Below, piece after piece: positions 1 to 26,167 of a stretch of 26,167 bases of DNA. Made by a program: the position numbers and the translations under genes. Positions within the stretch are counted from its first letter, which is position 1; the number at the start of each line of letters is the position of its first letter. The notes below the pieces were generated by a model, which worked only from the letters and a program-made list of their open reading frames with translations, was not told where the DNA came from and ran no database searches. Origin of the DNA: a virus; the IMG/VR virus record IMGVR_UViG_3300025890_000012, positions 1 through 26,167 of that record. One strand, 5' to 3'.

Positions 1-59
1 CTTGAGTCAATCTCTTCAAACCTGATCTCCCTGCCCCACACCTTCTTGGAGAAGGCATC
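1..59. repeat. Terminal direct repeat, copy 1 (circular assembly overlap)
   Basis: nt 1-59 (cttgagtcaatctcttcaaacctgatctccctgccccacaccttcttggagaaggcatc) are identical to nt 26109-26167. Confidence 0.95.
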
Positions 60-503
60 CAGATGCTTCTTGACTGTGTTGTACTTCTGCACTGTTCTGT
101 GACCAATAGGAAGTCCAAGTTGATTGGTCCTTTGCCCATCTGCAGTCTCCTTGATGAACTCCTTCACCCACTGGTTGAAGGTCAATGTTGCCTCAGACAC
201 TCCTTCCTTCCCATCCTTGTGTCTCTTGATTGCATCCTTGAATGTCAATGGAGTGATCTCCAGATCCTGAACCATCATCAGTGCATGGACCTTCTTGATG
301 TTGTTGATCTCCTCATCAAGTTCACCCTGAAGAACCACAAGTCTGTTGTTGAGTGGTTTGATCTTCTTGTTTTTTTTGTCCCATGCATTTGTGGGTGTGT
401 TGACTCCAGATGAGATCTTGATTCTTGTCCCATCAATTGTCATTCTGAGTTGAATGATTGACTGGACTCTGTCAGGGAAGGTGAGGAATGGTGTGATCTT
501 CAT
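1..503 (-). CDS. int: Tyrosine integrase, N-terminal part (ORF runs off the window edge and continues at 26108)
   Basis: Not in the ORF track because it is open at the edge. ATG at 503-501. Translation is MKITPFLTFPDRVQSIIQLRMTIDGTRIKISSGVNTPTNAWDKKNKK...HLDAFSKKVWGREIRFEEIDS, which overlaps the start of ORF 25301..26149. 503+808 nt = 1311 nt = 436 aa plus stop. The layout resembles the arm-binding plus SAM-like N-domains of Bacteroidota-type integrases (from memory, not searched). Confidence 0.85.
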   Translation of the reverse strand, partial: MKITPFLTFPDRVQSIIQLRMTIDGTRIKISSGVNTPTNAWDKKNKKIKPLNNRLVVLQGELDEEINNIKKVHALMMVQDLEITPLTFKDAIKRHKDGKEGVSEATLTFNQWVKEFIKETADGQRTNQLGLPIGHRTVQKYNTVKKHLDAFSKKVWGREIRFEEIDS

Positions 504-509
504 TTTTTC

Positions 510-532
510 TGTGGGCCATTTTGTGGGCCATT
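510..532 (+). promoter_or_regulatory. Two arm-type direct repeats TGTGGGCCATT (510-520, 522-532) abutting the int start codon
   Basis: Two exact 11-mers with 12-bp spacing. The same 9-mer core recurs three times at 752-793. They lie 7-29 nt upstream of the int ATG on the other strand. Confidence 0.7.
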
Positions 533-595
533 TTTGCGTGTTTATATAACCGCCAAAGATACACAGTTTTCTTCCATGTCCCAAATGCTCTCACG

Positions 596-604
596 TTATC
601 CACA
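596..604 (+). promoter_or_regulatory. Perfect DnaA-box consensus 9-mer TTATCCACA
   Basis: Read directly (gTTATCCACAgtc) in the non-coding attP arm. It is a single copy, so chance is not excluded. Confidence 0.3.
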
Positions 605-611
605 GTCATAG

Positions 612-628
612 CAGGGCATTCAGGGCAT
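612..628 (+). repeat. Tandem direct repeat CAGGGCAT x2 (612-619, 621-628), candidate accessory (Xis/IHF-type) site in attP
   Basis: gCAGGGCATtCAGGGCATaa, read directly. It lies between the arm repeats and the core. Confidence 0.4.
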
Positions 629-668: not shown

Positions 669-678
669 AGTCATAAAG

Positions 679-702
679 TAGCCCGTAGGGGATTTGAACC
701 CC
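679..702 (-). other. tRNA 3'-end-like segment (T-arm plus acceptor strand), candidate attP core
   Basis: The minus strand reads GGGGTTCAAATCCCCTACGGGCTA. This is a GTTCAAATC T-loop motif followed by a 7-nt acceptor-like strand. There is no matching 5' acceptor half, D-arm or anticodon arm upstream, so it is a fragment and not a gene. Confidence 0.6.
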
Positions 703-751
703 ATATCTGAACACCCTGAATCCATTGACAACTCACAGATTGTTGACACTG

Positions 752-2772: not shown

Positions 2773-3180
2773 TCAGTTGATCAGGTAGTCCTCAAGGATC
2801 TGAACTGCATGATCATATCCCTTTGCAATGGTTGCCTTGAATCCTCTCTCTGAGAGGTCCTCCTTCCATTGTTTCTGATGTTTGGACACCACACCTCCCT
2901 TCTCCCTCTTCATCTCAATAGAGAGTCCGTGATGGACTCCTCTTGGTTCATAGATGAACACATCAGGGAATCCTCTTTTGTATCCAGTTGCTTTGATCCT
3001 TTTGGCTTCAGAGATTGATGTCCTTGCCCCTCCTGCAGATGCACACCAGAGAATGTCTGGATGTTTGTCATCAATGTATTGAGTGAAGTTCTTTTGAATT
3101 TCAAACTCACTCCCAATGCCATGTCTATTCTTGGCAGATCTTCTCTTCCTCAATCCCTTTGTGTGAAGGTTGATCCCCAT
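2773..3180 (-). CDS. VRR-NUC (PD-(D/E)xK) nuclease
   Basis: GFPDVFIYEP...LSIEMKREKGGVVSKHQKQW matches the D...ExK core and the G-x-S-x-x-Q-x-x-W tail typical of VRR-NUC. Overlaps the endolysin 3' end by 31 nt. Confidence 0.7.
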   Translation of the reverse strand: MGINLHTKGLRKRRSAKNRHGIGSEFEIQKNFTQYIDDKHPDILWCASAGGARTSISEAKRIKATGYKRGFPDVFIYEPRGVHHGLSIEMKREKGGVVSKHQKQWKEDLSERGFKATIAKGYDHAVQILEDYLIN

Positions 3181-3575
3181 TTGTCCACCACATCAAATGA
3201 TGGACATGCCTTGTTGCTGAACTCATTGTGACCATAGATGGACACTGGTCCAAAGATGTCTCTGAGTTTGTCCACCAATTCAAAGAATGCACACTCCTGC
3301 AGATCAGTCATGGTGTCTGAAGGAGATCCATCTTCAATCCCTCCCACATAGCAGATCCCAATGGTCTGATTGTGACCTCTTGTGTGGGCACCTTGTTTCC
3401 AGATCGGTCTTCCCCTCTCCACTGTTCCACATCCATCATTCAGGATGACAAAGTGGTATCCAATATCTGACCAATTTCTTGGTGGTGAGGTGTGCCACTT
3501 TCGGATTGTCTCTGTTGAGATGTCCTGACCTTTGTTTGTAGCACTGCAATGGAGAATGATCTGATTGAATTTCAT
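3150..3575 (-). CDS. N-acetylmuramoyl-L-alanine amidase endolysin (T7-lysozyme/PGRP type)
   Basis: MKFNQIILHCSAT...YGHNEFSNKACPSF carries the His/His/Cys Zn-ligand pattern of Amidase_2. The start was chosen at the ATG at 3575, which overlaps the upstream stop (ATGA). Confidence 0.85.
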   Translation of the reverse strand: MKFNQIILHCSATNKGQDISTETIRKWHTSPPRNWSDIGYHFVILNDGCGTVERGRPIWKQGAHTRGHNQTIGICYVGGIEDGSPSDTMTDLQECAFFELVDKLRDIFGPVSIYGHNEFSNKACPSFDVVDKWGSTFTQRD

Positions 3576-3751
3576 GGGAGGAGTTGTTTCAACCAGAGAC
3601 CAACTGCAAGAATGAATGCCCCAATCCCACTCCACCACTTCTTCTCCAGACCATTGATCTTCTCATCATGTTGTGCAACCATGCCAGTGACATGATCCAT
3701 CTTCTCCTCCAATCTTGCAAGGCATGTGATGATTTGATCTTGTTTGTCCAT
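3572..3751 (-). CDS. Putative holin (59 aa, coiled-coil N-terminus, one C-terminal TM helix)
   Basis: MDKQDQIITCLARLEEKMDHVTGMVAQHDEKINGLEKKWWSGIGAFILAVGLWLKQLLP. Translationally coupled to the endolysin. The start was chosen at the internal ATG at 3751, downstream of the late box. Confidence 0.5.
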   Translation of the reverse strand: MDKQDQIITCLARLEEKMDHVTGMVAQHDEKINGLEKKWWSGIGAFILAVGLWLKQLLP

Positions 3752-3787
3752 GTTGTGGTGAATATCAGTTGAGGAGTTGTTTGATCT

Positions 3788-3805
3788 GATTGACGTTGTC
3801 AAGTT
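3788..3805 (-). promoter_or_regulatory. Late box copy 2 (degenerate): minus strand AACTTGACAACGTCAATC
   Basis: Matches the consensus at 15 of 18 positions, including the AACTTGACA half. Fills the gap between the tail-fibre stop (3807) and the holin ATG (3751) and ends 36 nt upstream of that ATG. Confidence 0.5.
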
Positions 3806-3806
3806 C

Positions 3807-7331: not shown

Positions 7332-10097
7332 TTATCTTCCCCTTTGTCTGAGTGCACGTTCTTGAGAGAGGACAATGTCTGCCCCTTGAATCCTTCCAGT
7401 CACATTCATGTTCTGGTTCCCTCCTGCAACTTGTCCCAAGAACTCTCCCATCCTCTCAAAGGGGATCACTGCCTCCCTTCCTGATGGATTGTCACCGATC
7501 ATGGCAAGAGTAGGTCCAAGAGTCATTCCTCCTGAGTGGAATTTGGGGATGGATGCAAACAGTCCTCCAATGACTGCAGTCAGGGCACTTGCCTTCCCCA
7601 CTCCTGACAGTCCACCAGTGACTGCATTGGCAGGATCTGCAGGACTGAATGCAGATGCAATTGCATTTGAGAGTGCAGTTGACAATGCTCCTGCAATCAT
7701 GTTCATGAATATCTTCTTGATGGACTCTCCAAAGGACTCACCACTGTTTGTCATTGAGGAGAATCCTGCCTGAACAACTTGTCCCATTGCATCCCCCAAC
7801 ATTGCACCAGTGTCAAAGGCATCATTGACCTCTCCTTGAGTTGTCTTGACTCCTTCCATCTTCTCCCTGAGAAGTTCCATCTGTTCATTCAACATCACAA
7901 ACTGATCTGTGTTGATGAAGTTGGGATCTGCAAGGATTGAGTCCCTGAGAAGTGTCTCCAGTGAGGTCAGGATATTCTGAGCAGACTGAAGATCATCAAT
8001 GATCCCAAGACCATTTGACACTTCCAATTCTTTGATGGTGTCCTTGAAGATACTCATTGGAGTTGCAACTCCTTCCACCTCTTCTGCAAAGGTCCCCATC
8101 TGTGAGGTCAGATCCTCCAGTGTCTGGGATGAGTTTGCAAAGTCTGCCTCCACAATCTTCTTGATTGCAGACTGGATCACATTGAACTTCTCTGCATCCA
8201 GATCCTCTCCAAATAGGACCTCCAACTTCCCAATGTCTGCAAGTTGTTTCTCAAGATCTGCCTTGACTGATGCAAGTGTCTCCTCAACCTTCTCTGTCTT
8301 TGTGTTGTCATCAATGACAATCTCAACAGTTGTCTCAATAGCACTCTGGGCCTCTTCAATGTCTTCCTCCAGTCTTCCAATTCTGTTGTTGATCAGATCA
8401 ACAATTCCAGTGAATTGATCATCAATGTTTAATCCTTGACCAAAGGGATCAAGACTGTTGATGATGTCAAGAATTGCAGGAGACAGATTGACTCCAGATG
8501 CCTCTGACATGATTGCCAGATTTGCCCTTCTTGCCTCTTCACTGAATGTCCCAGTTGTTGCATCAAATGCATTGATGATCCCCAATCTTGCAGATGTCAG
8601 TGGATCATCTGCCAGTCCAATCTGGAAGTCCATCAACTGTTCCAATGCCTCTGGAGAGAGGTTGGTGAGTTCTGCCTGAAGTGCCCTGAGTTGATCATTG
8701 AGAGAAGACACTGTCTGGACTCCTCCCTGATTGAATGCATCCCTGATCAATCCTGATCTTGTTGCAAGTGCCTTGACTGAGGCATTCAGAAGATCATTCT
8801 GTGCCTCAAGTGTCTCATTGAATGTGAGTGTCTTTGCATTGGCATTTGAGTTCTCTGAACTCATGATGAAGAGTGCCCCTGCCACTGTTCCAACTGCCAC
8901 TGCAAGTGCAGTGAATGGATTGGTGAGAAGAGATGCAGTGAAGGTCCTGACTGCAAGAGTTGCCCCTTGGAATCCTTTGATCATTCCTCCAATGGCCATT
9001 GATATTGGACCAATTGCAGAGACAAACAGTCCCACACTGACAATTGACTTCTGTGTTGTTGGAGAGAGATTTGAGAAGGATTGTGCCAGTCCTTTGATCT
9101 TCTCTGCAACTGACAAGACTGTTGGTGCAAGTGCAGTCCCCAATTCTATTTGTGCCCCCTCAATGGCACTCTTCATGGATGCAATGCCTCCCTTGGCAGA
9201 GTCATCCATCTCACTTGCCATGTCTGATGCACTCCCTCCTGCATTGACAAGTTCTTTGTTCAGTGCATTGAGTTGATCAAGGTTGTCTCCAAATAGTGGT
9301 TGAAGGATTGCAGATCTTTTGCCAAGAATCTTCATGGCATCTGCATAGTCCATTGAACCATTGATGATGTCTCCAAATGTTGACTTGACATCTACTCCTT
9401 GAGATGCCAATTCACTGAATGCCATCTTCAACTTGGTCCCTGCATCTGCTCCAGACAGACCATTGTTTGCAAGAACTCCAAGGAGGGATGTGGTCTCTTC
9501 CAGAGAGAATCCAAATTGATTTGCAAGGATTCCTGCATTGGACATTGATCCTGAGAACTTCTCAAGATCAAGACCAGATTTGGAGAATGACTTTGCAAGA
9601 ACATCTGCCACTCTTCCTGCATCCTCTGCCTCCAGACCAAATTGATTGATTGTCTGTTGGACTGCCTCTGCAGTTGGACCAAGTTCTGTCCCAAACGCTT
9701 GTGCAAGTCCAAGGATTGCAGGAGTTGCAGATTCAATGCCTTTGGCACTCACTCCCAACTTCCCCAGTTCCAATTGAAGAGATGCCACTTCTGAGGCACT
9801 GAAGACTGTTGAAGATCCCAAATCCTTTGCACTCTTCTGGAGTCTGTCAAAGTCCTGCCCAGTTGCTCCTGAGATTGCTTTGACTTTCTTCATGGCCAGT
9901 TCAAAGTCTGAACTGACACGGAATGCAGATGCACCAATTGCAACCAATGGTGCAGTCACTCCAAGAGTCATCCCCCTTCCAATGGATGAGAGTTTGTTTG
10001 CAGTTTTGGTCAGGTTACTTTGGGCCTGAGACATCCCCTTGGTGAATCGGGATGAATCAAGTCCAAGAACTACGGAGAGGAGGGATTGACGTGCCAT
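7332..10097 (-). CDS. Tail tape measure protein (921 aa)
   Basis: The size, the position after the G/GT chaperones, the TP901-type core (AMKKVKAISGATGQDFDRLQKSAKDLGSSTVFSASEVA), helical repeats and Gly-rich hydrophobic segments all fit. Confidence 0.9.
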   Translation of the reverse strand: MARQSLLSVVLGLDSSRFTKGMSQAQSNLTKTANKLSSIGRGMTLGVTAPLVAIGASAFRVSSDFELAMKKVKAISGATGQDFDRLQKSAKDLGSSTVFSASEVASLQLELGKLGVSAKGIESATPAILGLAQAFGTELGPTAEAVQQTINQFGLEAEDAGRVADVLAKSFSKSGLDLEKFSGSMSNAGILANQFGFSLEETTSLLGVLANNGLSGADAGTKLKMAFSELASQGVDVKSTFGDIINGSMDYADAMKILGKRSAILQPLFGDNLDQLNALNKELVNAGGSASDMASEMDDSAKGGIASMKSAIEGAQIELGTALAPTVLSVAEKIKGLAQSFSNLSPTTQKSIVSVGLFVSAIGPISMAIGGMIKGFQGATLAVRTFTASLLTNPFTALAVAVGTVAGALFIMSSENSNANAKTLTFNETLEAQNDLLNASVKALATRSGLIRDAFNQGGVQTVSSLNDQLRALQAELTNLSPEALEQLMDFQIGLADDPLTSARLGIINAFDATTGTFSEEARRANLAIMSEASGVNLSPAILDIINSLDPFGQGLNIDDQFTGIVDLINNRIGRLEEDIEEAQSAIETTVEIVIDDNTKTEKVEETLASVKADLEKQLADIGKLEVLFGEDLDAEKFNVIQSAIKKIVEADFANSSQTLEDLTSQMGTFAEEVEGVATPMSIFKDTIKELEVSNGLGIIDDLQSAQNILTSLETLLRDSILADPNFINTDQFVMLNEQMELLREKMEGVKTTQGEVNDAFDTGAMLGDAMGQVVQAGFSSMTNSGESFGESIKKIFMNMIAGALSTALSNAIASAFSPADPANAVTGGLSGVGKASALTAVIGGLFASIPKFHSGGMTLGPTLAMIGDNPSGREAVIPFERMGEFLGQVAGGNQNMNVTGRIQGADIVLSQERALRQRGR

Positions 10098-13359: not shown

Positions 13360-14691
13360 TTAGACTGTTGTTGGGGTTGTTGCAATAGTCATTCCACCCA
13401 GAGTCTGGACAGATCCTGAACGTCTCACATTTCCATTTGCATACATGTTTGCAATCAGACGGATTGTCCCCTGATGTGCAAGAGTGTAACTGTCCACAGT
13501 CACATCCAGTCCACCAAACTTTGCAATGAATAGATCAGAAGGATCAACAAAGTAAATTGGGCGAATTGAGATGGTGTCATCTGCATCTGTGATCCCTGAT
13601 GCATAAGCATCTGCAACCACTGTCTTGGCACCAACATTTGTTGATGAGAAGACCTGATACCCAAGGATCTCATTCCCAACATTGGCAATTGCTCCTCCTG
13701 CTGACTGAGACACTCCTTTGAGATATGCACTCATTGTTGGATCCATCAACATTGCAAGGTTTGCACCTGCAGGATCATTTGACAAGAATGCACCTTCATG
13801 TGCAGTTAGATCTGCATAAGTTGTTGCACTGTATGATGTGCCTGACACCACACTGTGATTGGTGATGTTCCCAACTCCAAACAGATTTGTGTTGATCACA
13901 TACTTGTCCAACTCGTTTCCAAGTGCAACAGACATGTCACGTGCAATCACCGCATCAAGTGCAGGATCAGACTGGTTCAACATTTGACGTGTGAGATCCA
14001 TCCGCATTGTGAAACGCTTGGGATCAAGAGTCACAGATCCAAAGTCTCCATCAAGATTGGCAACGTCACCAATCTCTGCAACTTGTGATCCTGCTCCATT
14101 TGGTAATGAAGGGAGAACAAGGTTTCCAGATGCTTGGATCACTGTTGCCCCCATACGCTCAAGGACTGAGGTTGCTCGAAGGCCCTCAACCATTCCTGCA
14201 TGTTCAACACCTCGGACTTTGTTTCCTTGGTTCTGACCATTGGTGTCATCAACAGAATAGGACTCATTTGCACGTTCCTCACCGTTCATCAAGAATGATG
14301 GGATGGTGATGTTTCCACGAGCAGATGCCCCAGTTGCATTCAATTCATTTCGGCCTTCTTGGACCATCTCTGCCTCCAGTCCTTCCAGACCTCCCTTGTT
14401 GACCAGATCAGAGATTGCTTTGGTCATTGAGAACTTGCCCCTCAATTGAGTTTGCTCCTTCTCTTCAGACTTTGATGATGCAATTCCTGCACCTGCAGTG
14501 AACATTGCCTCATTGCTTTTGGCACGTTTGATCTCTGTGTCAAGATCTGCCACTTCAGAGTGGATTGCATCTTGACGTGTGTTCTCCTCTTCTGAGAAGT
14601 CACGTTCTTCTGTGGCAACAGAATTGAGGAGAGTTTCCAACTCCTCAACCAATGCACCACGTTCCTCCAATAGTTTGTTGGAATTTTTCAT
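13360..14691 (-). CDS. Major capsid protein, HK97 fold family
   Basis: Follows the prohead protease with an ATGA overlap. The N-terminus is a coiled-coil, delta-domain-like segment (MKNSNKLLEERGALVEELETLLNS...). The start was chosen at the ATG at 14691 rather than the track start at 14736. Confidence 0.85.
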   Translation of the reverse strand: MKNSNKLLEERGALVEELETLLNSVATEERDFSEEENTRQDAIHSEVADLDTEIKRAKSNEAMFTAGAGIASSKSEEKEQTQLRGKFSMTKAISDLVNKGGLEGLEAEMVQEGRNELNATGASARGNITIPSFLMNGEERANESYSVDDTNGQNQGNKVRGVEHAGMVEGLRATSVLERMGATVIQASGNLVLPSLPNGAGSQVAEIGDVANLDGDFGSVTLDPKRFTMRMDLTRQMLNQSDPALDAVIARDMSVALGNELDKYVINTNLFGVGNITNHSVVSGTSYSATTYADLTAHEGAFLSNDPAGANLAMLMDPTMSAYLKGVSQSAGGAIANVGNEILGYQVFSSTNVGAKTVVADAYASGITDADDTISIRPIYFVDPSDLFIAKFGGLDVTVDSYTLAHQGTIRLIANMYANGNVRRSGSVQTLGGMTIATTPTTV

Positions 14692-15305
14692 GTTGTTGTT
14701 TTGAGTTTTGCGAGTTGGAGCATAGACTGTCCCCACTTCAGACGGTCTCTTGTTTGCTCAGTCTCCTCGACTTGATTTGTATTTGTTGTTTTTGGTAGTG
14801 GGGGTGTTGGCAATGATCTTGCAGTCACTTCTGTTGTTTGATAGGCAGGATATGTGACCACGCTCAGATCTATGAGATTGCCAAGTCTGGTGATGTGTCG
14901 ATGTGGTTTGCCATCCCTCTCTTCCCATTGATCTTCCTCAACCGTGAATGCAAAGGATGCCTGATCCACATCTCCTCTCAAGAGGGATGAGTGCAGGTCT
15001 TGTGCATAGGATTGTGGTCCAACTGGGAAGGAGAAGTGAACACCTCTCTCATCAATTTTCATGTCCAATGTCCCCTGACCGTCTTTGGACCGTGCAAGGG
15101 GATAGTTCTCATTATGGTTGAATAGCATTCTGACATCATCATTCATCACATTGGTGAATGAATCTGGATCAATACTCTCTGTAAATTTTCCAAGATCAGT
15201 GTCCTCATTGAAGACCACTGCATATCCTTCCACTCTCTGCTCATCTTGAGTCTCTGGAGTGTCAGATCTGGATTGGATTGTTGTTTGGATGAATCGTCTT
15301 TCCAT
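14688..15305 (-). CDS. HK97-family prohead protease
   Basis: ...VEGYAVVFNE...VRMLFNHNENYPLA...ASFAF... matches the S78/U35 protease pattern. Lies between portal and capsid. Confidence 0.8.
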   Translation of the reverse strand: MERRFIQTTIQSRSDTPETQDEQRVEGYAVVFNEDTDLGKFTESIDPDSFTNVMNDDVRMLFNHNENYPLARSKDGQGTLDMKIDERGVHFSFPVGPQSYAQDLHSSLLRGDVDQASFAFTVEEDQWEERDGKPHRHITRLGNLIDLSVVTYPAYQTTEVTARSLPTPPLPKTTNTNQVEETEQTRDRLKWGQSMLQLAKLKTTT

Positions 15306-16618: not shown

Positions 16619-16866
16619 TATAGATCAGACCTTCTCTTGGTGTTCCATCTACTCAAAACAGAGGCAAAGTTCTCATGTCCATTGTATCTGGTCCTCCCAA
16701 ACAAACTCATGTGATCCTCTTCAACACTCCAGTATGTGTCACCATTGGAGTCATGTTGAGGGAGTCTCTCAAAGTATTCTTCAATGAATCCTTCTCTTGT
16801 TGAGATCTTGGGTGCCAGATCAAGGAGTCTGATCAGTTTTTGGGGATTGTTTGGATTGTAGGTCAA
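16618..16866 (-). CDS. Hypothetical protein (82 aa, TTG start overlapping the TerL stop)
   Basis: It is the only ORF filling the TerL-portal gap. No ATG start is available and no motif was recognised. Confidence 0.4.
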   Translation of the reverse strand: MTYNPNNPQKLIRLLDLAPKISTREGFIEEYFERLPQHDSNGDTYWSVEEDHMSLFGRTRYNGHENFASVLSRWNTKRRSDL

Positions 16867-18563
16867 AGGGTTCTGATTGTATATGTGTCTGGAATGTTGT
16901 TTGAGGTTTGTGTTTGGTCTGTCATCTCTTGGCCAATGGACATGATCAATGAGATGATCCCATCAATCTTGTCTCCTGATTTGTCTTTGTCTGGTTTGAT
17001 ATTGCCTGAAGGATCTGTCTTGAGAACTACGTTCCCAAACATCCATCTGATCACTGGATCACAACCATGTTGGATCTTGCCTTCTGAGATCAATCTCTCA
17101 AGTTGTTTGGATGGTGTGGACATTGACACGAATCCTTGCCCAAAGGGGACCATGTTGATCCCATCAGATGCAAGGTTGATCACACACTGTGATGAGTTGA
17201 ATCTGTCAAAGGCAATGCACTCAATGTTGAATCTGGATGCAAGTGGATCAGGATCATGTTTGACTTGTCCATCTTGGATGTGGTATCCAGTGACAAACCT
17301 CCTGATTGAATCATAGTCTGTCACATTGCCCTCTGTGATGAAGACATTTGGAAGGGATGCAAATTCTTGATAGATCCTTGATCCAGATGACTGAAGACGT
17401 TTGTTGACTGTCTCTTCAGGTATCCAATAGAAGGACCGTGTGACATATCCTCCCTCATTGGGCCAGACCAAAGTCAATGCAGTGATGTCTGAGACTGATG
17501 CAAGATCCAGTCCTCCCCAACACTTCACTTGTGGATCAGGTTGGATGTCTGTCTGATCTGCCATCACAGTCTCATCTGAGATCCATGTTGCAGAAGAGGA
17601 CACCCACTCATTCATGTGTTTGGTCCTGAAGTTGACCAACATTGAACCTCCATAGTTTTGAGACTGCCTCAACTCCTTCTCAATATATGAGGAAGGAAGT
17701 GTGACATCCAGAGATGGATTGGACTTGATCCAGACTGAAGGATCTGTGAAGTCATCCTCTTCATCCAGAGTGTAGATCAGTGCAAACAGACTGTCATCTT
17801 GTGTCTTCCCTTCCAAGACATCACAAGTGGATCTCATCATCTGAAAACAAGGACCTCCAATGTTGAATCCTGCAGTGGTGATGATTGCAATCAGGGGAGA
17901 TGTTCTTGCCCCAGTTGCACTCTTGAGGACATTCAGGAGATCTGCATCTTTGTGTGCATGGAACTCATCCAGAACTGCACAATGAACATTGAGTCCATCT
18001 GCACTCTTGGCATCTGAGGACAGTGGTTCTGCCTTTGAATTGGTTGAAGGGACAGAGAGATTGTTCCTCAGGATCTTGATCCTCTTCTTGAGGTGTGGAG
18101 ATGACATGACCATCCTTGTGGCCTCATCATGACAGATTTTTGCCTGATCTCTCTTGGTTGCTCCCCAGACTACTTCAGACGCTTGTTCTCCATCAAAGTC
18201 AAGGAGTGCAAGTCCTATCCCTGCAAGGAGTTGTGTCTTCCCATTCTTCCTCCCAACCTGACAATATAAAGTGGAGAACCTTCTTGATCCATCATCCTTC
18301 TTCCATCCAAAGATTGATGCAACTGCAAACTTCTGCCAAGGAAGGAGAAGGAATCTCTGACCTGCCCACTTGCCTTTGGTATGGTAGAGGAATCTCTCAA
18401 AGAATTGGATGAATCTGTCTGCATCTTGATCATCAAACCAGAGTCCACGAGTGTGCCCATCCTGAAGATCATCCAGATGTCTTTGACATGCAAGGTTGAT
18501 CCACTTGGATGCAGTGATCTTCCCACTGATCACATCATGTGCATAGTCATTCCAATCTGTCAT
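16863..18563 (-). CDS. terL: Terminase large subunit
   Basis: Walker A QVGRKNGKTQL, Walker B AVLDEFHAH, and the nuclease-domain segment GLDLASVSDITAL. The ATG at 18563 overlaps the TerS stop by 1 nt. Confidence 0.9.
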   Translation of the reverse strand: MTDWNDYAHDVISGKITASKWINLACQRHLDDLQDGHTRGLWFDDQDADRFIQFFERFLYHTKGKWAGQRFLLLPWQKFAVASIFGWKKDDGSRRFSTLYCQVGRKNGKTQLLAGIGLALLDFDGEQASEVVWGATKRDQAKICHDEATRMVMSSPHLKKRIKILRNNLSVPSTNSKAEPLSSDAKSADGLNVHCAVLDEFHAHKDADLLNVLKSATGARTSPLIAIITTAGFNIGGPCFQMMRSTCDVLEGKTQDDSLFALIYTLDEEDDFTDPSVWIKSNPSLDVTLPSSYIEKELRQSQNYGGSMLVNFRTKHMNEWVSSSATWISDETVMADQTDIQPDPQVKCWGGLDLASVSDITALTLVWPNEGGYVTRSFYWIPEETVNKRLQSSGSRIYQEFASLPNVFITEGNVTDYDSIRRFVTGYHIQDGQVKHDPDPLASRFNIECIAFDRFNSSQCVINLASDGINMVPFGQGFVSMSTPSKQLERLISEGKIQHGCDPVIRWMFGNVVLKTDPSGNIKPDKDKSGDKIDGIISLIMSIGQEMTDQTQTSNNIPDTYTIRTL

Positions 18564-19033
18564 CAACCACTTGAGGCAGTTTTGAGTGTGAGATATGGAT
18601 CATCTTGATCCTTCTTGATATTTGAGAAGGACATCAACTTCTCTCTGTCTGCAGGAGACAGTCCCAACTTTGCTGAAAGTGTGAGGACATTCTTGACTGC
18701 ACGTTCAAATGCAGTGAAGGTGCCAGTGATATTTGTTGCACCAGAGTCAAACTCCTGCACAACATCATCCAGATCCTTGATCTCATTTGATGCCTGAACC
18801 ATGATGTCAATGTTCTTTGCCAGAACAGACAACAACATTGCATCCACCTGATAGAGGACAGATGCCTCATTCAGATGATCAATTGTCAGATCATAGAAGT
18901 GACGTGCATTCTCATTGAGGTCAATGATTGGATCTGGGAAGTCAGATCTGTCAACTGTTGACTCCTTTGGAGTGATGTCCCTATCTGATCGGAGGGTTCC
19001 TTGAATTGCTTTGAGTGCTTTGCTTTTGGCCAT
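18563..19033 (-). CDS. terS: Terminase small subunit (P27-family-like)
   Basis: Lies immediately upstream of TerL. About 156 aa counted from the ATG at 19033 (MAKSKALKAIQG...). The C-terminal ...AKLGLSPADREKL... is typical of the family. Confidence 0.7.
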   Translation of the reverse strand: MAKSKALKAIQGTLRSDRDITPKESTVDRSDFPDPIIDLNENARHFYDLTIDHLNEASVLYQVDAMLLSVLAKNIDIMVQASNEIKDLDDVVQEFDSGATNITGTFTAFERAVKNVLTLSAKLGLSPADREKLMSFSNIKKDQDDPYLTLKTASSG

Positions 19034-19921: not shown

Positions 19922-19973
19922 GGTTCCTGAGAAGCAGGGCGAAGTTCGGTCTCACCTAAATACCAAACAAGAG

Positions 19974-19988: not shown

Positions 19989-19995
19989 TTGAAAC

Positions 19996-21716: not shown

Positions 21717-21959
21717 ATGAGCATACCAAGAACGCAAGTCTTTGACACTCTGCTGACAACTTCTGAAGTTGCAGAGATCTTGAAGGTCACTCCTGCAACT
21801 GTCAGGAATATGATCAAGAGAGGAGACATCACAGACTGCATCCAACTTAACAAAGGGGGAAGAATACTCTACCGAGTACCAATGAACTCCCTCAGGTCTT
21901 TAATGGGCAATGATCTGCCCCAGAATGAAAGCAGATCAGTATTTTCAAATCTCTCATAA
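21717..21959 (+). CDS. Helix-turn-helix DNA-binding protein (excisionase/MerR-like HTH_17 type). Candidate Xis and/or Cro-like regulator
   Basis: TTSEVAEILKVTPATVRNMIKRGDI...GGRILYRV is the typical Xis/AlpA-type winged-HTH signature. It is the first gene of the early operon. Confidence 0.75.
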   Translation: MSIPRTQVFDTLLTTSEVAEILKVTPATVRNMIKRGDITDCIQLNKGGRILYRVPMNSLRSLMGNDLPQNESRSVFSNLS

Positions 21960-21960
21960 A

Positions 21961-22539
21961 ATGAGTATAATGACACAAGGGTTCTTGCCCTTCAATTTTG
22001 GCATTCAAACGAATGCAGACGGCACATGTTCAACTCCAACTCCTCACACGGAGGATCTAACTCCATTCTTCCCTGATATTAAAGGAAGAAGGATCTGGAA
22101 CAAAAAACACCCAGAGATTGCAAACTATCCTGAAGCAATTGCATACTGTGTGGACAAATACTGTGATGAACATGCAGTCCCAGTGACATGGTTCATAGTT
22201 TCCAAACTGCTGAAGGCAGAAGGATTCCCAAAGATGAACAAGGGCAACATCACCAATGCCATCAACATGGGCCTGATCACAAGAGTGGCGATCAAGGACT
22301 TCCAGAAGTCTAAAAGAGGGGAGCAACTTCTTGCCTCTAATGAGTTGGGAGAAAACGTCAACAACATGATCTGGGACTTCACCAATTGGTTTGAAGACAT
22401 AGACGATGGAACAGAGACTCCATTCAGATGGAATGAACACCGTGAGGTCTTCATGAACAACCTTCTGAGGAGTGTCAAACAACGTGGATTCTTCAAAACC
22501 AAAGTACACTGTCACCCAAATGTTGGACTTCCGTTCTAA
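21961..22539 (+). CDS. Hypothetical protein (192 aa)
   Basis: ATG at 21961 directly after the upstream stop; the track start at 21910 overlaps the upstream gene. TAATG coupling to the next gene. No motif recognised. Confidence 0.6.
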   Translation: MSIMTQGFLPFNFGIQTNADGTCSTPTPHTEDLTPFFPDIKGRRIWNKKHPEIANYPEAIAYCVDKYCDEHAVPVTWFIVSKLLKAEGFPKMNKGNITNAINMGLITRVAIKDFQKSKRGEQLLASNELGENVNNMIWDFTNWFEDIDDGTETPFRWNEHREVFMNNLLRSVKQRGFFKTKVHCHPNVGLPF

Positions 22540-22937
22540 TGAGTGGAGTGTTTCACTACGCACTCCCCTCTGACAAGGTTCAGAACAGTGCATTTGACAA
22601 CTACCTCAACAAGGTCTGTGATGCATCTGGCATCCTTAAGGCCGAGTTGATCGGTCATGGAAGAAGACGTGAGGTTGTAGATCTACGACATCTCATGATG
22701 ACCATTGCATATCATGAATTTGGACTCACAGTGAAGACTGTGGGGAAGATGTTCAACCGAGATCACTCATCTGTTGTCCATGCAAAGGACAAGATGAAGA
22801 TTCTCCTGAGCAATCCCAAAGTCCTAAAACAAACACCTTTCCTGCACCAGTGTGTCCTCATTGCAGATCAGGAAATTTTCAACATCTGGGGACACAATTT
22901 TAACACAATAAACACATGGCTTATACAGAAAAAGTGA
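22539..22937 (+). CDS. DnaA C-terminal (domain IV)-like HTH protein, putative replication initiator/regulator
   Basis: GRRREVVDLRHLMMTIAYHEFGLTVKTVGKMFNRDHSSVVHAKDKMKILL parallels the DnaA domain IV pattern R-x-x-x-x-x-R-Q-x-A-M-Y-L...IG...RDHSTV-HA. Confidence 0.7.
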   Translation: MSGVFHYALPSDKVQNSAFDNYLNKVCDASGILKAELIGHGRRREVVDLRHLMMTIAYHEFGLTVKTVGKMFNRDHSSVVHAKDKMKILLSNPKVLKQTPFLHQCVLIADQEIFNIWGHNFNTINTWLIQKK

Positions 22938-23194
22938 CATTTGAGATTGACCTCTCAAAGATCGACAAGAGTGCAATCAAGGAGGTTGCAAGTGGCAAAT
23001 GGATGAAGGTGACTCTGGTCCCAACTCCAGACAACCAGTACAATGAATATCTGGTCTCTCAATATATAGGGAAGGGACAGAGTGGAGTCATCCTTGGCAA
23101 TGGTAACGACATGAGCACGGTGATGGACAAGATCAATGGGAACTCCAAACCAGTCCAACTGGAGGAATCCTCAGACGCTCCTCTCCCCTTCTAA
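22916..23194 (+). CDS. Hypothetical 92-aa protein with an SSB-like acidic C-terminal tip (..EESSDAPLPF)
   Basis: ORF in the replication module. The last residues resemble the D-D-D-I-P-F tip of bacterial SSBs. An OB fold was not verified. Confidence 0.5.
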   Translation: MAYTEKVTFEIDLSKIDKSAIKEVASGKWMKVTLVPTPDNQYNEYLVSQYIGKGQSGVILGNGNDMSTVMDKINGNSKPVQLEESSDAPLPF

Positions 23195-23217
23195 TGTAGA
23201 GGATGCACCACATATCA

Positions 23218-23232
23218 GGACACAGAGTGTCC
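23218..23232. repeat. 15-bp palindrome GGACAC-aga-GTGTCC
   Basis: Read directly in the 107-nt gap inside the replication module. Confidence 0.5.
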
Positions 23233-23252
23233 ACAATCCATTCATTTTGATA

Positions 23253-23286
23253 GGGGCCATTGCACTATGGTAGTGGCCCCTTTTTT
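23253..23286 (+). terminator. Rho-independent terminator
   Basis: GGGGCCA (23253-23259) / TGGCCCC (23274-23280) with a 14-nt loop, followed by TTTTTT (23281-23286). Confidence 0.7.
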
Positions 23287-23301
23287 AGGCCTTAACAATT
23301 T

Positions 23302-24276
23302 ATGATCCCACCAATACCAACCAACAAAAAAATCCCAATCTTCAGACCTGAAGAGAGATCCTTGGAGTTGGACCTTGTCAGAAGGAACAACGTCAAAGGA
23401 GGGGTGTCCACTGGCTTTGAACGCTTAGATCCATTCTTCACGGTCAAACGTGGCTTCCCCTTATTTATAGCAGGAGCACCCCATCATGGCAAGAGTCAAT
23501 TTGTCAAGCAACTTCTGGTGAACCTTTCGAAGATTCATGGATATAGACATGCCATCTATCTGGGGGAAGAAGGTTCCATTGAAGACATTGTCATTGAGTT
23601 GGCTGAGATCTACACTGGGAAGAAGATCCTCCTGCATGATGACAGAGGCAACAAGATTGAGGATGCCCTTCCAGAAGAGGAGTTCCAAGAGGTCCAGAGA
23701 TGGATCAACAAACACTTCTGGATCATCTCCCCAGATGATGCAGACATTGGTTCCTTTGACGTTCGGATCTTCTATCAGTGGGTGGATGCATATGAGAAGG
23801 AATATGAGATGAAGTTTGACACAACTGTCATTGATCCTTGGAATGACCTCTCCATGAATCTGAACAGTCAAGGAGGCAGGGAGGATCTATTCCTTGCAGA
23901 TGCCCTCAAACACGTGAGGGATCAGTCAAGGCAGAGACATAGGACAGACATCATCATCACCCACATATCTGCCCCATATGCCAAACACAGATCCCAGAAG
24001 GGTGTCAGGTTTGCATCCCCTGCAGAACCCTATGAGATTGCAGGAGGACAAACTTGGTACAGACGTGCCTTCACAATGATCTTGGTATATAGACCGCCAT
24101 CTCCAGATCAACTGAAATTTGGCAAGGTATTGATTGACACGAATGCAGGAGAGACATGGCTTGTCATCCAGAAGTCCAAACCAAAGGGAGTTGGGAAGTT
24201 GGGGAGAGTGACTCTGTACTACAACAAGAAGACCAACAACTACCAAGAGGAGACACTGGATGAAGACGAACAATAG
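23302..24276 (+). CDS. DnaB-like replicative helicase ATPase domain protein (RecA-fold, no N-terminal DnaB domain)
   Basis: STGFERLDPFF...GFPLFIAGAPHHGKSQF (Walker A) and TTVIDPWND (Walker B). The overall pattern is like a DnaB C-terminal or T7 gp4 helicase domain. Confidence 0.75.
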   Translation: MIPPIPTNKKIPIFRPEERSLELDLVRRNNVKGGVSTGFERLDPFFTVKRGFPLFIAGAPHHGKSQFVKQLLVNLSKIHGYRHAIYLGEEGSIEDIVIELAEIYTGKKILLHDDRGNKIEDALPEEEFQEVQRWINKHFWIISPDDADIGSFDVRIFYQWVDAYEKEYEMKFDTTVIDPWNDLSMNLNSQGGREDLFLADALKHVRDQSRQRHRTDIIITHISAPYAKHRSQKGVRFASPAEPYEIAGGQTWYRRAFTMILVYRPPSPDQLKFGKVLIDTNAGETWLVIQKSKPKGVGKLGRVTLYYNKKTNNYQEETLDEDEQ

Positions 24277-24646
24277 AAGTCTGAAGGTGGGAGACTTCCA
24301 TCCAACACATCAATGGAATCCACTTGACCTCATATACATCAGGTCTCAGTGCCATGTGGGAATGATCAGACTGGAGAATGCAGTCAGTGCACTGGAGGAC
24401 TCAGGGCAGGAGATAAACAATTCACAACGTAAACACACGGAGGAGTTGATTGAGACATTGCACCATGCCATGATTGCACTTCAGGATCTGGAAGGTGAGA
24501 GGAACATCTGCAACCACAACTCCATTCTGGAGAGAGTTGCACACACAAAGACAATGATCCAAAGGGATGAGTGTCAGAAGGAAATTGAAAAACTAAAAAC
24601 AGAAGGAGAATCACTCAGATCCTCCATTGCAAAATTTATGAGATAA
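24260..24646 (+). CDS. Hypothetical protein (up to 128 aa, coiled-coil C-terminus)
   Basis: ORF overlapping the helicase stop. The start is uncertain (alternative ATG at 24362). Confidence 0.45.
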   Translation: MKTNNRSLKVGDFHPTHQWNPLDLIYIRSQCHVGMIRLENAVSALEDSGQEINNSQRKHTEELIETLHHAMIALQDLEGERNICNHNSILERVAHTKTMIQRDECQKEIEKLKTEGESLRSSIAKFMR

Positions 24647-24647
24647 C

Positions 24648-25040
24648 ATGAAATTAAACGAGACAGAGAGAGAACAACTCAGAAAACTGTTCAACACAAA
24701 CGGACTCTCAAAGGATGACATCTTTGTTCACAAGAACTTCACGATCATCAAGAGGGCAGGGATTGAAAAGATCCAATTCAAGAACCAGATCAAGGTTGAG
24801 TTTGACATCATCAAATGCGAACCTGAATTTGTAGTGATGAAGGCACTTGCCTTCAGGACAGATCATGATGGGGATGACTATTCAATTGAGACATTTGGAT
24901 CTGCCACACCCCAGAACTGCATGTCCAAGCACCTTGTGGAGATGGCTGAAAAACGTGCCCTCTCAAGGGCCATCCTGAAGGTGACAAACATGTATGAACA
25001 TGGAGTCTTTGGAGAAGACGAGGATGTCCACAGATCCTGA
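24648..25040 (+). CDS. Hypothetical protein (130 aa). Weak resemblance to Rad52/Sak-type single-strand annealing proteins
   Basis: ETFGSA...HLVEMAEKRALSRAILKV is reminiscent of the Rad52 GYG...DGLKRALRSFG helix. Judged by eye only. Confidence 0.5.
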   Translation: MKLNETEREQLRKLFNTNGLSKDDIFVHKNFTIIKRAGIEKIQFKNQIKVEFDIIKCEPEFVVMKALAFRTDHDGDDYSIETFGSATPQNCMSKHLVEMAEKRALSRAILKVTNMYEHGVFGEDEDVHRS

Positions 25041-25311
25041 TTGGATTGATGACATCTTTGAGGAGTTGGAGGATCGGGTGCCTGAGGGCATCCGTTTCCG
25101 TTTGGATGAACTTCTGGATCAGATCTACATTGAAGATGAGAGAGACTTCCTGCATCTTCTACAAAGGATCTACTCTCCTGATCTAACCTCTCAGGGAGTC
25201 ACAGATCTGTTCAGGGAACTCAATGACAGAAGAGTCCCAGTGAGGGATCAATATGCCCCAAGACAGAAGGATCTTGCAGAGTGGATCAGGTCCTTCTGCT
25301 TCACAGATTGA
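25024..25311 (+). CDS. Hypothetical acidic protein (95 aa)
   Basis: The ATG at 25024 is preceded by gaggATG. The 3' end overlaps the convergent int stop by 11 nt. Confidence 0.5.
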   Translation: MSTDPDWIDDIFEELEDRVPEGIRFRLDELLDQIYIEDERDFLHLLQRIYSPDLTSQGVTDLFRELNDRRVPVRDQYAPRQKDLAEWIRSFCFTD

Positions 25312-26167
25312 GAGACTTCAACAACTGCATCCCTGCCACTTTGCTCATCTCAGATTGTGAGATGTCCAGATACTTCAGGAAGGCACCTTCTGAATTGTGT
25401 CCAGTGAGTGACATGAGTTGACCGTTTGACAACTTCCCTCTCTTGTAGAGATTGGTTGCAAATGTTCTCCTTGCAGTGTGGTTTGAGACAAGTTCATGCA
25501 ATGGGACTCTTGAGATCTTCCCTGCATCAGACATCTTCCCTGACATCTGATCAATCATTCTGTCCAATCCGACAATCTCACATGCCTCCTTGATCTTCTT
25601 GTTCATCTGTTGTTCTGCACTCACTTCAGGAAGGTCTCCCTGCCACTTGGTGATCACCTTGCAGAGTTCAGGCATGACTGGAATGGTCACCTCATCTTTG
25701 GTCTTGTCCTGCACAAAAGTCAAGAACCTTGGACACTTCCCTCCACTCTGCTTCCATGCATCCTTGATGACCTCTGGCATCCTCTTCAGATCTGAGATCC
25801 TGACACCAGTCCAACATGCCACAAGGAAGTGATCCCTGCACTGGTTCAGGGCAGTCTTCTCAATGTCAAATCTGTTCTTCCCAGAGAAGTCATGATCTGC
25901 AAGGATCTGCAACTCCTCCTCTGTGAGAGTTGGCTTCCTGACCTTGATCTCCTTTGGGAGGAAGGCCTTTGTTTGCCACTGCTTATTGGAGTGCACTTCT
26001 CTGAGATATGACTCCTTCATCCACGTCTTGAGGACTGCCTGATCTTTGGCAATGGTGTTGACACCAAGTCCTTGATCCCCTCTGTACTTCTTGTACTGCT
26101 CCAAGAACCTTGAGTCAATCTCTTCAAACCTGATCTCCCTGCCCCACACCTTCTTGGAGAAGGCATC
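25301..26167 (-). CDS. int: Tyrosine integrase, C-terminal catalytic part
   Basis: Tyrosine-recombinase motifs are present: TGVRISDL (Arg), HTARRTF (H-x-x-R), LTGH (His), FLKYL (Tyr). The GTG start in the track is an artefact, because the ORF is open upstream to the window end. Confidence 0.9.
   Translation of the reverse strand, partial: DAFSKKVWGREIRFEEIDSRFLEQYKKYRGDQGLGVNTIAKDQAVLKTWMKESYLREVHSNKQWQTKAFLPKEIKVRKPTLTEEELQILADHDFSGKNRFDIEKTALNQCRDHFLVACWTGVRISDLKRMPEVIKDAWKQSGGKCPRFLTFVQDKTKDEVTIPVMPELCKVITKWQGDLPEVSAEQQMNKKIKEACEIVGLDRMIDQMSGKMSDAGKISRVPLHELVSNHTARRTFATNLYKRGKLSNGQLMSLTGHNSEGAFLKYLDISQSEMSKVAGMQLLKSLNL
26109..26167. repeat. Terminal direct repeat, copy 2 (circular assembly overlap)
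   Basis: Identical to nt 1-59, base by base. Confidence 0.95.

What the first reader, a model, noticed from the sequence alone, without database searches (positions are those of the whole stretch)
1..26167. Strong CpG and TpA depletion, AGR arginine codons in int and abundant GATC
Hand counts: the 503 nt of int at the left end contain 0 CpG and 2 TpA. I would roughly expect 20 or more of each from base composition, but that is an estimate. The right-hand 867 nt of int contain 3 CpG. The 975-nt helicase gene contains about 13. Non-coding islands are much less depleted, with 6 CpG in about 250 nt at 19743-19995. Every Arg codon I read in the right-hand (C-terminal) part of int is AGA or AGG; I did not tabulate other genes. 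Four-fold families favour NNA, while two-fold families favour C or G endings (AAG, GAG, ATC, TTC). That is unlike typical low-GC Flavobacteriia usage. TG and CA are conspicuously common, which is the pattern expected from 5mC deamination or from selection against CG-containing targets. GATC occurs 7 times in nt 1-503, where at most about 2 are expected under any base composition, and about 5 times in 22561-23100. One consequence is that TAA/TAG stops are rare in all frames, which produces the many long spurious antisense ORFs in the track. The cause is unexplained. It could be host CpG methylation, restriction avoidance, the host's codon dialect, or Dam-type methylation tolerance.
Basis: seen in the sequence. 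Interest (0 to 1): 0.6.

Follow-up and report, generated by a model that had tools for sequence, protein, structure and literature searches.

The report
Phage genome purged of short words
This small marine temperate phage has rewritten almost every gene with synonymous codons so that the dinucleotides CG, TA and most GC nearly vanish. No sampled candidate host shows this pattern, and it looks like an extreme, generalised way of hiding from DNA-cutting host defences.

Summary
Strand-symmetric observed/expected (o/e) ratios over the whole genome are CpG 0.12, TpA 0.21 and GpC 0.55. AGC/GCT is 0.16. CTAG, CCGG, GCGC and CGCG occur 0 times and AGCT twice. Codon usage and protein content do not explain this. 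Permuting synonymous codons within genes predicts 667 CpG (149 observed, z -33) and 880 TpA (361 observed, z -34). Non-coding DNA is depleted too.

GATC occurs 351 times, but this is mostly a by-product. With dinucleotide counts held fixed the excess is only 1.10-fold.

The same dialect is shared by one clade of marine phage contigs. Sister clades with 63-78% TerL (large terminase) identity have CpG about 1.25 and purge other words (GATC, TGCA, AG/CT, AT). Single sites such as GATC, GGATCC, GAATTC, CAATTG and CTGCAG switch between absent and abundant among close relatives.

None of about 110 sampled Flavobacteriales genomes resembles the phage. Two sister prophages differ sharply from their own host flanks. 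No family member searched encodes a DNA methyltransferase.

Best reading, at about 55%: passive avoidance of restriction or defence targets, taken to the dinucleotide level. TpA depletion is partly host-like. The true host was not found, and the agent acting on CpG is unknown. This scan noted a similar word-purged phage before on other DNA (e1-3445668).

The parts
1..26167 (.). Whole phage genome carrying the signature: CpG o/e 0.12, TpA 0.21, GpC 0.55 and AGC/GCT 0.16. CTAG, CCGG, GCGC and CGCG occur 0 times and AGCT 2 times. GATC occurs 351 times and TGCA 322 times.
1..59 (.). Left copy of a 59-bp terminal direct repeat, an assembly overlap of a circle. The unique genome is 26,108 bp.
   Evidence: IMG/VR classes the record as having direct terminal repeats and as 100% complete.
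26109..26167 (.). Right copy of the 59-bp terminal repeat.
678..702 (-). attP core. These 25 nt are identical to the 3' end (T-arm and acceptor) of the tRNA-Glu(UUC) of the Flavobacteriales MAG that hosts a sister prophage. It keeps a CpG.
3..503 (-). N-terminal part of the integrase gene (Arm-DNA-bind_5), with 0 CpG, 2 TpA and 7 GATC.
25301..26167 (-). C-terminal part of the integrase gene, with 3 CpG. All 16 Arg codons are AGA or AGG.
7332..10097 (-). Tape-measure gene, among the most purged genes: CpG 7 against 149 expected, TpA 15 against 195 expected.
13360..14736 (-). Major capsid gene, the least CpG-purged large late gene (22 against 72 expected, o/e 0.30). It holds the genome's only GGATCC, at 13739.
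21910..25311 (+). Early and replication module (DnaA-C-like HTH protein, primase/helicase-like ATPase). It is uniformly less purged than the late genes: CpG 0.16-0.32, TpA 0.14-0.47.
16863..18566 (-). Large terminase gene, used for the comparison with relatives. At 17 invariant Arg columns clade A uses AGR in 69 of 85 codons, while clades B and C use CGN in about 90%.

Best explanation
What it is. The window is a complete 26.1-kb temperate siphovirus-like phage of marine Flavobacteriales. It has a Bacteroidota-type integrase, and its attP core matches a tRNA-Glu 3' end. It encodes no DNA methyltransferase.

Proposed mechanism. Selection on double-stranded DNA has sculpted the sequence against short words. 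These are the targets of the restriction-modification and related nucleases present across its host population.

How the purge is done. In this clade it has gone down to dinucleotides and one trinucleotide: CG, TA, most GC, and AGC/GCT are removed wherever the protein allows. The phage does this by choosing each codon's third base according to the first base of the next codon, and by using AGR for Arg, GCA for Ala and TCN/AGT for Ser. This deletes 45 of the 64 six-base palindromes and 5 of the 16 four-base palindromes outright.

By-products. The permitted steps CA/TG, GA/TC and AT fill the space, so GATC, TGCA and TGA become very common. GC content also falls to 45%. The lineage is evidently not under GATC-directed restriction.

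Host share. TpA depletion is probably partly inherited from the host lineage, since G001-like hosts have TpA 0.24.

Shown and inferred. Shown: the statistics, their independence from codon usage, the lineage-specific switching of words, the prophage-against-host contrasts in sister phages, and the lack of methyltransferases. Inferred: that nucleases are the selective agent, and which agent could act on every CpG.
For: 1. The depletion acts on the DNA, not on translation.
- It is far beyond codon usage.
- It acts at codon junctions: NNY codons are 92% C before A and 93% T before G.
- It is symmetric on both strands for AGC and GCT.
- It is present in non-coding DNA.

2. Specific six-mers are missing beyond the dinucleotide-preserving null.
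- GGATCC: 1 against 13.7 expected (z -4.8) despite 330 GATC in the coding sequence.
- CCATGG: 0 against 5.7.
- GAATTC: 0 against 5.8.

3. Words switch on and off among close relatives.
- GATC is 351 in the window but 0 of 17 expected in L059, which nests inside the same clade in the TerL tree.
- CAATTG is 25 here and 0-3 in other clade A contigs.
- CTGCAG is 21 here and 0 in L055, L202 and L219.
- GAATTC is 0 here and 4-7 in L145, L147 and L150.

4. Sister clades have other dialects.
- Clade B: CpG 1.27, AG/CT 0.40, TGCA near 0.
- Clade C: AT 0.61, GATC 0.

5. Two sister prophages differ from their own hosts.
- L148 host flank against prophage: CCGG 110 with 114 expected against 1 with 77 expected. 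AGCT 35 with 31 expected against 5 with 41 expected.
- G001 host against its prophage L021: GATC 36 with 71 expected against 3 with 80 expected. TGCA 94 with 71 expected against 21 with 80 expected.

6. No sampled host looks like the phage.
- About 70 loci from the candidate host family have CpG 0.70 or higher.
- 40 genomes drawn evenly from the order have CpG 0.38 or higher, TpA 0.55 or higher and GpC 0.90 or higher.

7. No methyltransferase was found in the window or in four relatives.

8. Site elimination is an established anti-restriction strategy of dsDNA phages (PMC6286503).

9. RGCY is the most frequent methylated motif in marine viral MAGs (PMC8919816). Here AGCT is at 0.02 and AGCC/GGCT at 0.06.
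Against: - The true host of this clade was not found. All clade A contigs recovered are episomal, so the comparison with the host is indirect.
- All 16 NCGN contexts are depleted 2.5-fold or more, including the 12 non-palindromic ones. Known Type II specificities do not readily account for that. It would need a very large set of targets or an unknown agent acting on CpG itself.
- Published surveys find avoidance much weaker in temperate than in virulent phages (PMC6286503).
- No matching restriction enzyme was identified. DpnII was not found in five candidate-host MAGs, though these are incomplete.
- Clade B's AG/CT depletion shows that not every dialect fits palindrome logic.
Confidence: 0.55

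Rival explanations
1. Amelioration to an unsampled host. The phage simply mirrors the dinucleotide signature of its real host, an uncultured marine bacterium whose own genome is CpG-, TpA- and GpC-poor.
For: - Temperate phages usually resemble their hosts (established knowledge).
- The G001-like hosts do share strong TpA depletion, at 0.24.
- The real host was never identified.
- GC content is 45% against about 60% in most genomes that carry the exact att core, which hints that the host may lie elsewhere.
Against: - None of about 110 sampled Flavobacteriales genomes has CpG below 0.38 or GpC below 0.84.
- Sister prophages differ clearly from their own host flanks.
- Single words toggle between close relatives inside the clade.
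- Six-mers such as GGATCC are missing beyond the dinucleotide null.
Confidence: 0.2
2. A mutational origin. CpG methylation of the phage or prophage DNA, followed by 5mC deamination, eroded CpG into TpG/CpA. TpA loss has a separate cause.
For: - CA/TG o/e is 1.60, and NCA codons dominate several four-fold families.
- All CpG contexts are depleted, as expected for a CpG-wide process.
Against: - It does not explain TpA at 0.21, GpC at 0.55 or AGC/GCT at 0.16.
- The CA/TG excess is forced arithmetically once CG and TA are removed (inference).
- Conserved Arg positions went from CGN to AGR, which needs C-to-A transversions (with the genetic code).
- A prophage shares its host's methylation and repair, yet no sampled host is CpG-poor.
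- Searches with three methyltransferase families found none in the phages, and no convincing C5-methyltransferase hit in five candidate-host MAGs.
Confidence: 0.12
3. Selection at the RNA or translation level. The cause would be codon-pair bias, avoidance of UpA- or GCU-cleaving ribonucleases, or avoidance of out-of-frame stops.
For: - UpA-cleaving and GCU-cleaving toxins exist (from my own knowledge, not checked here).
- Depletion is slightly stronger in coding than in non-coding DNA.
Against: - Non-coding DNA is also strongly depleted (CpG 0.21, TpA 0.35, GpC 0.50).
- GCT and its complement AGC are both avoided on the sense strand.
- TGA, also a stop codon, is doubled.
- Palindromic words are the ones driven to zero.
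Confidence: 0.05

Closest known systems
Restriction-site (palindrome) avoidance in dsDNA phages, as surveyed by Rusinov et al. 2018 (PMC6286503). The classic cases of Bacillus and Staphylococcus phages that lack particular sites I recall from my own knowledge.
   Same: - Complete or near-complete loss of short palindromic words (CTAG, CCGG, GCGC, CGCG, AGCT, GGATCC, GAATTC, CCATGG).
- The losses are achieved by synonymous recoding.
- Which words are missing differs between lineages.
- There is no phage methyltransferase.
   Different: - Here the purge generalises to whole dinucleotides (CpG 0.12, TpA 0.21, GpC 0.55) and a trinucleotide, including non-palindromic contexts.
- The phage is temperate, and the survey found avoidance much weaker in temperate phages.
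- No cognate enzymes were identified.
CpG and UpA depletion in vertebrate viruses and genomes, attributed to ZAP, RNase L and 5mC deamination (named from my own knowledge, not checked here)
   Same: The numerical signature looks alike: CpG and TpA are low and TpG/CpA is high.
   Different: - The host is a bacterium.
- GpC and AGC/GCT are depleted too.
- Palindromic four- and six-mers are driven to zero.
- The signal is symmetric on the DNA and present in non-coding DNA.
- No comparable bacterial sensor of CpG is known to me.
Host-like genome signature of temperate phages (dinucleotide amelioration)
   Same: TpA depletion resembles that of the G001-like Flavobacteriales hosts (0.24).
   Different: CpG, GpC and the palindrome counts depart strongly from every sampled host and from the host flanks of sister prophages.
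Earlier finding of this scan, e1-3445668: a 53.7-kb tailed phage 'purged of short DNA words'
   Different: It is an unrelated genome with other purged words (GAG/CTC, GAAG/CTTC). I did not re-examine it.

Membership tests
Phage restriction-site avoidance (passive anti-restriction) | Short, mostly palindromic words are significantly under-represented relative to a composition- and codon-aware expectation | tested here: met
   - Against the codon-usage null: AGCT 1 against 55, CTAG 0 against 25, CCGG 0 against 27, TCGA 9 against 117.
- Against the dinucleotide-preserving null: GGATCC 1 against 13.7.
- 45 of 64 six-base palindromes are absent from the coding sequence.
Phage restriction-site avoidance (passive anti-restriction) | The avoidance belongs to the phage rather than being shared with the host chromosome | tested here: inconclusive
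   - Met for two sister prophages against their host flanks.
- Met against about 110 sampled Flavobacteriales genomes.
- The window's own host was not found.
Phage restriction-site avoidance (passive anti-restriction) | The avoided words match the specificities of restriction enzymes present in the host | not testable with these tools
   - The host is unknown.
- DpnII was not found in five candidate-host MAGs.
- Enzyme specificity cannot be read from family membership.
Phage restriction-site avoidance (passive anti-restriction) | Which words are avoided varies between related phages | tested here: met
   GATC, AGCT, TGCA, GGATCC, GAATTC, CAATTG and CTGCAG toggle among relatives with 63-86% TerL identity.
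Methylation-driven CpG decay (5mC deamination) | A CpG-specific C5-methyltransferase acts on the DNA | tested here: not met
   - PF00145 was not found in the window or in four relatives.
- Five candidate-host MAGs gave only two marginal partial hits.
- The MAGs are incomplete, so absence is not proven.
Methylation-driven CpG decay (5mC deamination) | The depletion is confined to CpG, with a matching TpG/CpA gain | tested here: not met
   TpA (0.21), GpC (0.55) and AGC/GCT (0.16) are depleted as well.
Host-mirroring genome signature of temperate phages | The phage's dinucleotide odds ratios lie within the range of the host lineage | tested here: not met
   - Phage CpG is 0.12 and GpC 0.55.
- In the sampled candidate-host family CpG is 0.70-1.18.
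- In the sampled order CpG is 0.38-1.22 and GpC 0.90-1.42.
- Only TpA overlaps, with G001-like hosts at 0.24.

The most novel reading that the evidence does not exclude
A defence or sensing system in marine Flavobacteriales acts on DNA at the level of the bare CpG dinucleotide, and perhaps on TpA and AGCY too. That is far less specific than any characterised restriction enzyme. A family of methyltransferase-less temperate phages escapes it by rewriting the whole genome into a CpG-free dialect. On this reading, the bimodal split between CpG 0.12-0.35 in clade A and 1.14-1.37 in the sister clades marks the presence or absence of that system in the respective hosts.
Probability: 0.2. Interest if true: 0.85.

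Novelty: new variant of a known kind. Interest (0 to 1): 0.62.

Why it matters
- **An extreme case.** If defence avoidance is the cause, this family shows how far the genetic code's redundancy can be pushed to hide a genome. Three of the four self-complementary dinucleotides are removed, and with them most possible palindromic restriction sites, without a single protective enzyme.
- **A natural experiment.** Sister clades 63-86% identical in TerL speak different 'dialects'. These could be used to read out the restriction repertoires of uncultured marine bacteria.
- **An open question.** The CpG-wide depletion has no known bacterial agent. It therefore points either to an uncharacterised low-specificity defence or to an unusual host.
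- **A practical warning.** Host prediction from k-mer signatures would fail for such phages. ORF finders will also over-call antisense ORFs, because TAA and TAG are rare.

Tried and rejected
- **Integrated copy of a clade A phage, to read host flanks. None found.**
  - TerL search in genome contigs gave only a 70%-identical sister prophage.
  - TerL searches in 401 genomes of the order and in all 236 genomes of the family found no clade A prophage.
  - Integrase homologues led only to circular or episomal phage contigs.
  - An exact chimeric attR pattern (host tRNA-Glu joined to the phage arm) gave 0 hits in metagenome contigs.
  - The integrase-alignment scan of metagenome contigs gave more episomal clade A contigs. 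It also gave one unrelated element in a 252-kb host contig that has ordinary composition.
- **Public runs.** The runs holding the phage are marine, seawater or estuary metagenomes. None is an isolate or a single cell.
- **Reads laid over attP.** Two short contigs share only the 46-59-nt tRNA-like stretch and have TA-rich flanks. They are too short to identify.
- **Host enzymes.** DpnII and C5-methyltransferase searches in five candidate-host MAGs gave nothing usable.
- **'All even palindromes have a self-complementary centre'.** I considered this as a full explanation and rejected it as incomplete. AT is not depleted here, TGCA is abundant, and clade B depletes AG/CT.
- **Literature.** The phrase 'CpG depletion' together with 'phage genomes' gave no paper in the held library. 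This is not proof that none exists.
- **Phage records.** blastn against the phage collection found only short Streptococcus-phage terminase similarity.

Full report
**What the window is**

The record is the whole genome. The held assembly G000 has only this contig. Its first and last 59 bases are identical, so the circle is 26,108 bp.

Removing the overlap joins the two int pieces into a 1,311-nt gene of 436 aa. That is the length of a 93%-identical database homologue.

Pfam and PHROGs identify these genes:
- a Bacteroidota-type tyrosine integrase (Arm-DNA-bind_5, Phage_int_SAM_5);
- small and large terminase, an HNH endonuclease, portal, HK97-type capsid and tape measure;
- a VRR-NUC protein, a metallophosphoesterase, a DnaA-C-like HTH protein and a primase/helicase-like ATPase.

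No DNA methyltransferase was found. This holds for these scans and for six-frame searches with PF00145, PF01555 and PF02086.

The 25 nt at 678-702 on the minus strand equal the 3' end of the tRNA-Glu(UUC) next to a sister prophage. Public runs that hold the phage are marine, seawater or estuary metagenomes from 14 studies. It is therefore a small temperate siphovirus-like phage of marine Flavobacteriales.

**The observation**

The hand counts hold. Strand-symmetric observed/expected (o/e) ratios over the genome are:

| Dinucleotide | o/e |
|---|---|
| CpG | 0.12 |
| TpA | 0.21 |
| GpC | 0.55 |
| ApT | 1.07 |
| CA/TG | 1.60 |
| GA/TC | 1.44 |

- At trinucleotide level every CG- and TA-containing word is at 0.05-0.35.
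- GpC survives almost only as TGCA (o/e 3.2) and GGCA/TGCC (1.5). AGCT is at 0.02 and AGCC/GGCT at 0.06.
- Four-base palindromes: CTAG, CCGG, GCGC and CGCG 0, AGCT 2, TCGA 10, GTAC 14, TTAA 17. Against these stand GATC 351, TGCA 322 and CATG 168.
- All 32 coding pieces are depleted. Late genes are the most extreme: the tape-measure gene has CpG 7 against 149 expected and TpA 15 against 195. The early module (21910-25311) and the capsid gene are somewhat less so (CpG 0.16-0.32).

**Is it codon usage or protein content?**

No.
- **Synonymous codons permuted within each gene** (protein and codon usage kept). This predicts 667 CpG (149 observed, z -33), 880 TpA (361 observed, z -34), 874 GpC (688 observed) and 55 AGCT (1 observed).
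- **Context dependence of the third base**.
  - Before a G-starting codon, 1% of four-fold codons end in C.
  - Before an A-starting codon, 2% end in T.
  - Before a C-starting codon, 4% end in G.
  - NNY codons are 92% C before A and 93% T before G.
- **Non-coding DNA** (2.2 kb) is also depleted: CpG 0.21, TpA 0.35, GpC 0.50.
- **Strand symmetry.** GCT and its complement AGC are both avoided on the sense strand.

The pressure therefore acts on double-stranded DNA, not on translation or mRNA.

**GATC**

Against the codon-usage null GATC is 1.65-fold over (z +14). When protein, codon usage and all dinucleotide counts are held fixed, 300 are expected and 330 observed (1.10-fold). TGCA is 1.16-fold over.

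So GATC abundance is mostly what is left when CG, TA and GC steps are forbidden and GA, AT and TC are favoured. It needs no Dam-related explanation.

The same null exposes real six-mer avoidance inside the permitted vocabulary:
- GGATCC: 1 against 13.7 (z -4.8);
- CCATGG: 0 against 5.7;
- GAATTC: 0 against 5.8.

In all, 45 of 64 six-base palindromes are absent from the coding sequence.

**Relatives**

TerL and integrase searches recovered a family of marine phage contigs.

| Group | Loci | TerL identity to window | Signature |
|---|---|---|---|
| Clade A | L055-58, L144-147, L150, L202-205, L219 | 85-86% (L055-L058) | The same dialect: CpG 0.17-0.32, TpA 0.15-0.38, CCGG and GCGC 0 |
| L059 | L059 | 81% | CpG 0.14 but GATC 0 with 17 expected, and AGCT normal |
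| Clade B | L060-63 | 76-78% | CpG 1.27, TpA 0.23, AG/CT 0.40; CCGG, CTAG, AGCT and TGCA near 0 |
| Clade C | L064, L021, L148 | about 70% | CpG 1.23, AT 0.61; GATC, CCGG and CTAG near 0 |

- In a TerL maximum-likelihood tree the CpG-poor rows form one group (support 83/99). L059 nests inside it. This suggests a single shift to the CpG-poor state, with GATC loss evolving later within the clade.
- At 17 invariant Arg columns, clade A uses AGR in 69 of 85 codons. Clades B and C use CGN in about 90%. At 16 invariant Ala columns GCA is 68 of 80 in clade A, against GCC/GCG in the sister clades.
- Six-mers toggle between near relatives: CAATTG is 25 here and 0-3 elsewhere in clade A. CTGCAG is 21 here and 0 in L055, L202 and L219. 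GAATTC is 0 here and 4-7 in L145, L147 and L150. CCATGG is near 0 across the whole family.

Such on/off switching of individual palindromes is what selection by changing restriction repertoires predicts.

**Does it mirror the host?**

The window's host was not found (see Tried and rejected). The indirect evidence argues against mirroring.
- **Sister prophage L021 in MAG G001**.
  - Host contigs have GC 0.60, CpG 0.97, GpC 0.97 and TpA 0.24.
  - Host word counts: GATC 36 with 71 expected, CCGG 87 with 169 expected, TGCA 94 with 71 expected.
  - The prophage has GATC 3 with 80 expected, CCGG 5 with 147 expected, TGCA 21 with 80 expected.
- **Sister prophage L148**. The host flank has CCGG 110 with 114 expected and AGCT 35 with 31 expected. 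The prophage has CCGG 1 with 77 expected and AGCT 5 with 41 expected.
- **The attP core.** The exact 25-mer occurs in 21 of 236 genomes of G001's family. Those loci have CpG 0.75-1.18.
- **Family sample.** Fifty family genomes sampled at the ProRS locus have CpG 0.70-1.18 and TpA 0.33-0.87.
- **Order sample.** Forty genomes drawn evenly from the order have CpG 0.38-1.22, TpA 0.55-0.85 and GpC 0.90-1.42.

Only the TpA depletion has a host parallel, in the G001-like group.

**Mechanism**

The best-supported reading is passive avoidance of DNA-targeting defences by a phage family that carries no methyltransferase. In this clade the avoidance has generalised to whole dinucleotides.
- Every even-length palindrome has CG, GC, TA or AT at its centre. 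Removing three of the four therefore removes most possible orthodox Type II sites at once.
- That idea is incomplete. AT is not depleted, TGCA is abundant, and clade B purges AG/CT.
- Site elimination is an established strategy, but surveys report it as much weaker in temperate phages (PMC6286503).
- RGCY is the commonest methylated motif in marine viral MAGs (PMC8919816). That fits the near-absence of AGCY here.
- The weak point is CpG. All 16 NCGN contexts are depleted, including the non-palindromic ones. No known bacterial enzyme family explains that. Either many targets add up, or an unknown agent acts on CpG, or the host is unusual.

Rivals (my estimates):
- amelioration to an unsampled host, about 0.2;
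- methylation followed by deamination, about 0.12. It cannot explain the TpA, GpC or AGC/GCT loss, nor CGN to AGR;
- RNA-level selection, about 0.05.

**Verdict**

I class this as a new variant of a known kind: restriction-site avoidance taken to the dinucleotide level in a temperate phage family with clade-specific dialects. This scan recorded a similar 'word-purged' phage earlier on unrelated DNA (e1-3445668). I did not re-test that note.

Noticed in passing
window 1-59 and 26109-26167: There is a 59-bp exact terminal direct repeat, an assembly overlap. Without trimming it, the two int pieces (503 + 867 nt) join out of frame. After trimming, int is 1,311 nt, or 436 aa.
   Followed up: yes
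window 678-737 (minus strand): Beyond the 25-nt tRNA-Glu core, about 30 more bases recur with 3-5 mismatches in short contigs of two marine runs. The flanks of those contigs are TA-rich and unlike the phage. This may be an attB or host fragment, or another element.
   Followed up: partly
L148 1-9900; L149 1-9500; L021 1188-1260: Relatives integrate at the same chromosomal place in Flavobacteriales whose GC ranges from 41% to 66%. L148 and L149 share the order LpxK, NIF3, ProRS, Dps/ferritin, then the integrase. A tRNA-Glu is detected just upstream of the integrated element in L149 and L021. L149 keeps only a truncated integrase remnant, which belongs to a 37-member protein cluster.
   Followed up: partly
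L060-L063, L213, L216, L218 (clade B relatives): AG/CT dinucleotide o/e is 0.40 while CpG is 1.27 and TGCA is near 0. This is a different and equally odd dialect, and it is not explained by palindrome centres.
   Followed up: no
G001 host contigs (L136-L139, L141): This 2.1-Mb, 60% GC Flavobacteriales MAG itself has TpA o/e 0.24 and CTAG 2 with 71 expected. That is unusually strong TpA depletion for a bacterium.
   Followed up: partly
window 21910-25311 against 2773-21504: The early and replication module is uniformly less purged (CpG 0.16-0.32) than most late genes (0.15 or lower). The capsid gene (0.30) and the gene at 10778-11209 (0.42) are late-gene exceptions. This may reflect recombinational imports.
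   Followed up: no
L206 10001-18122: A 59%-identical integrase sits next to tRNA-Met and tRNA-Arg in a 252-kb marine contig. The element it belongs to has ordinary composition, so related integrases also serve elements that are not purged.
   Followed up: no
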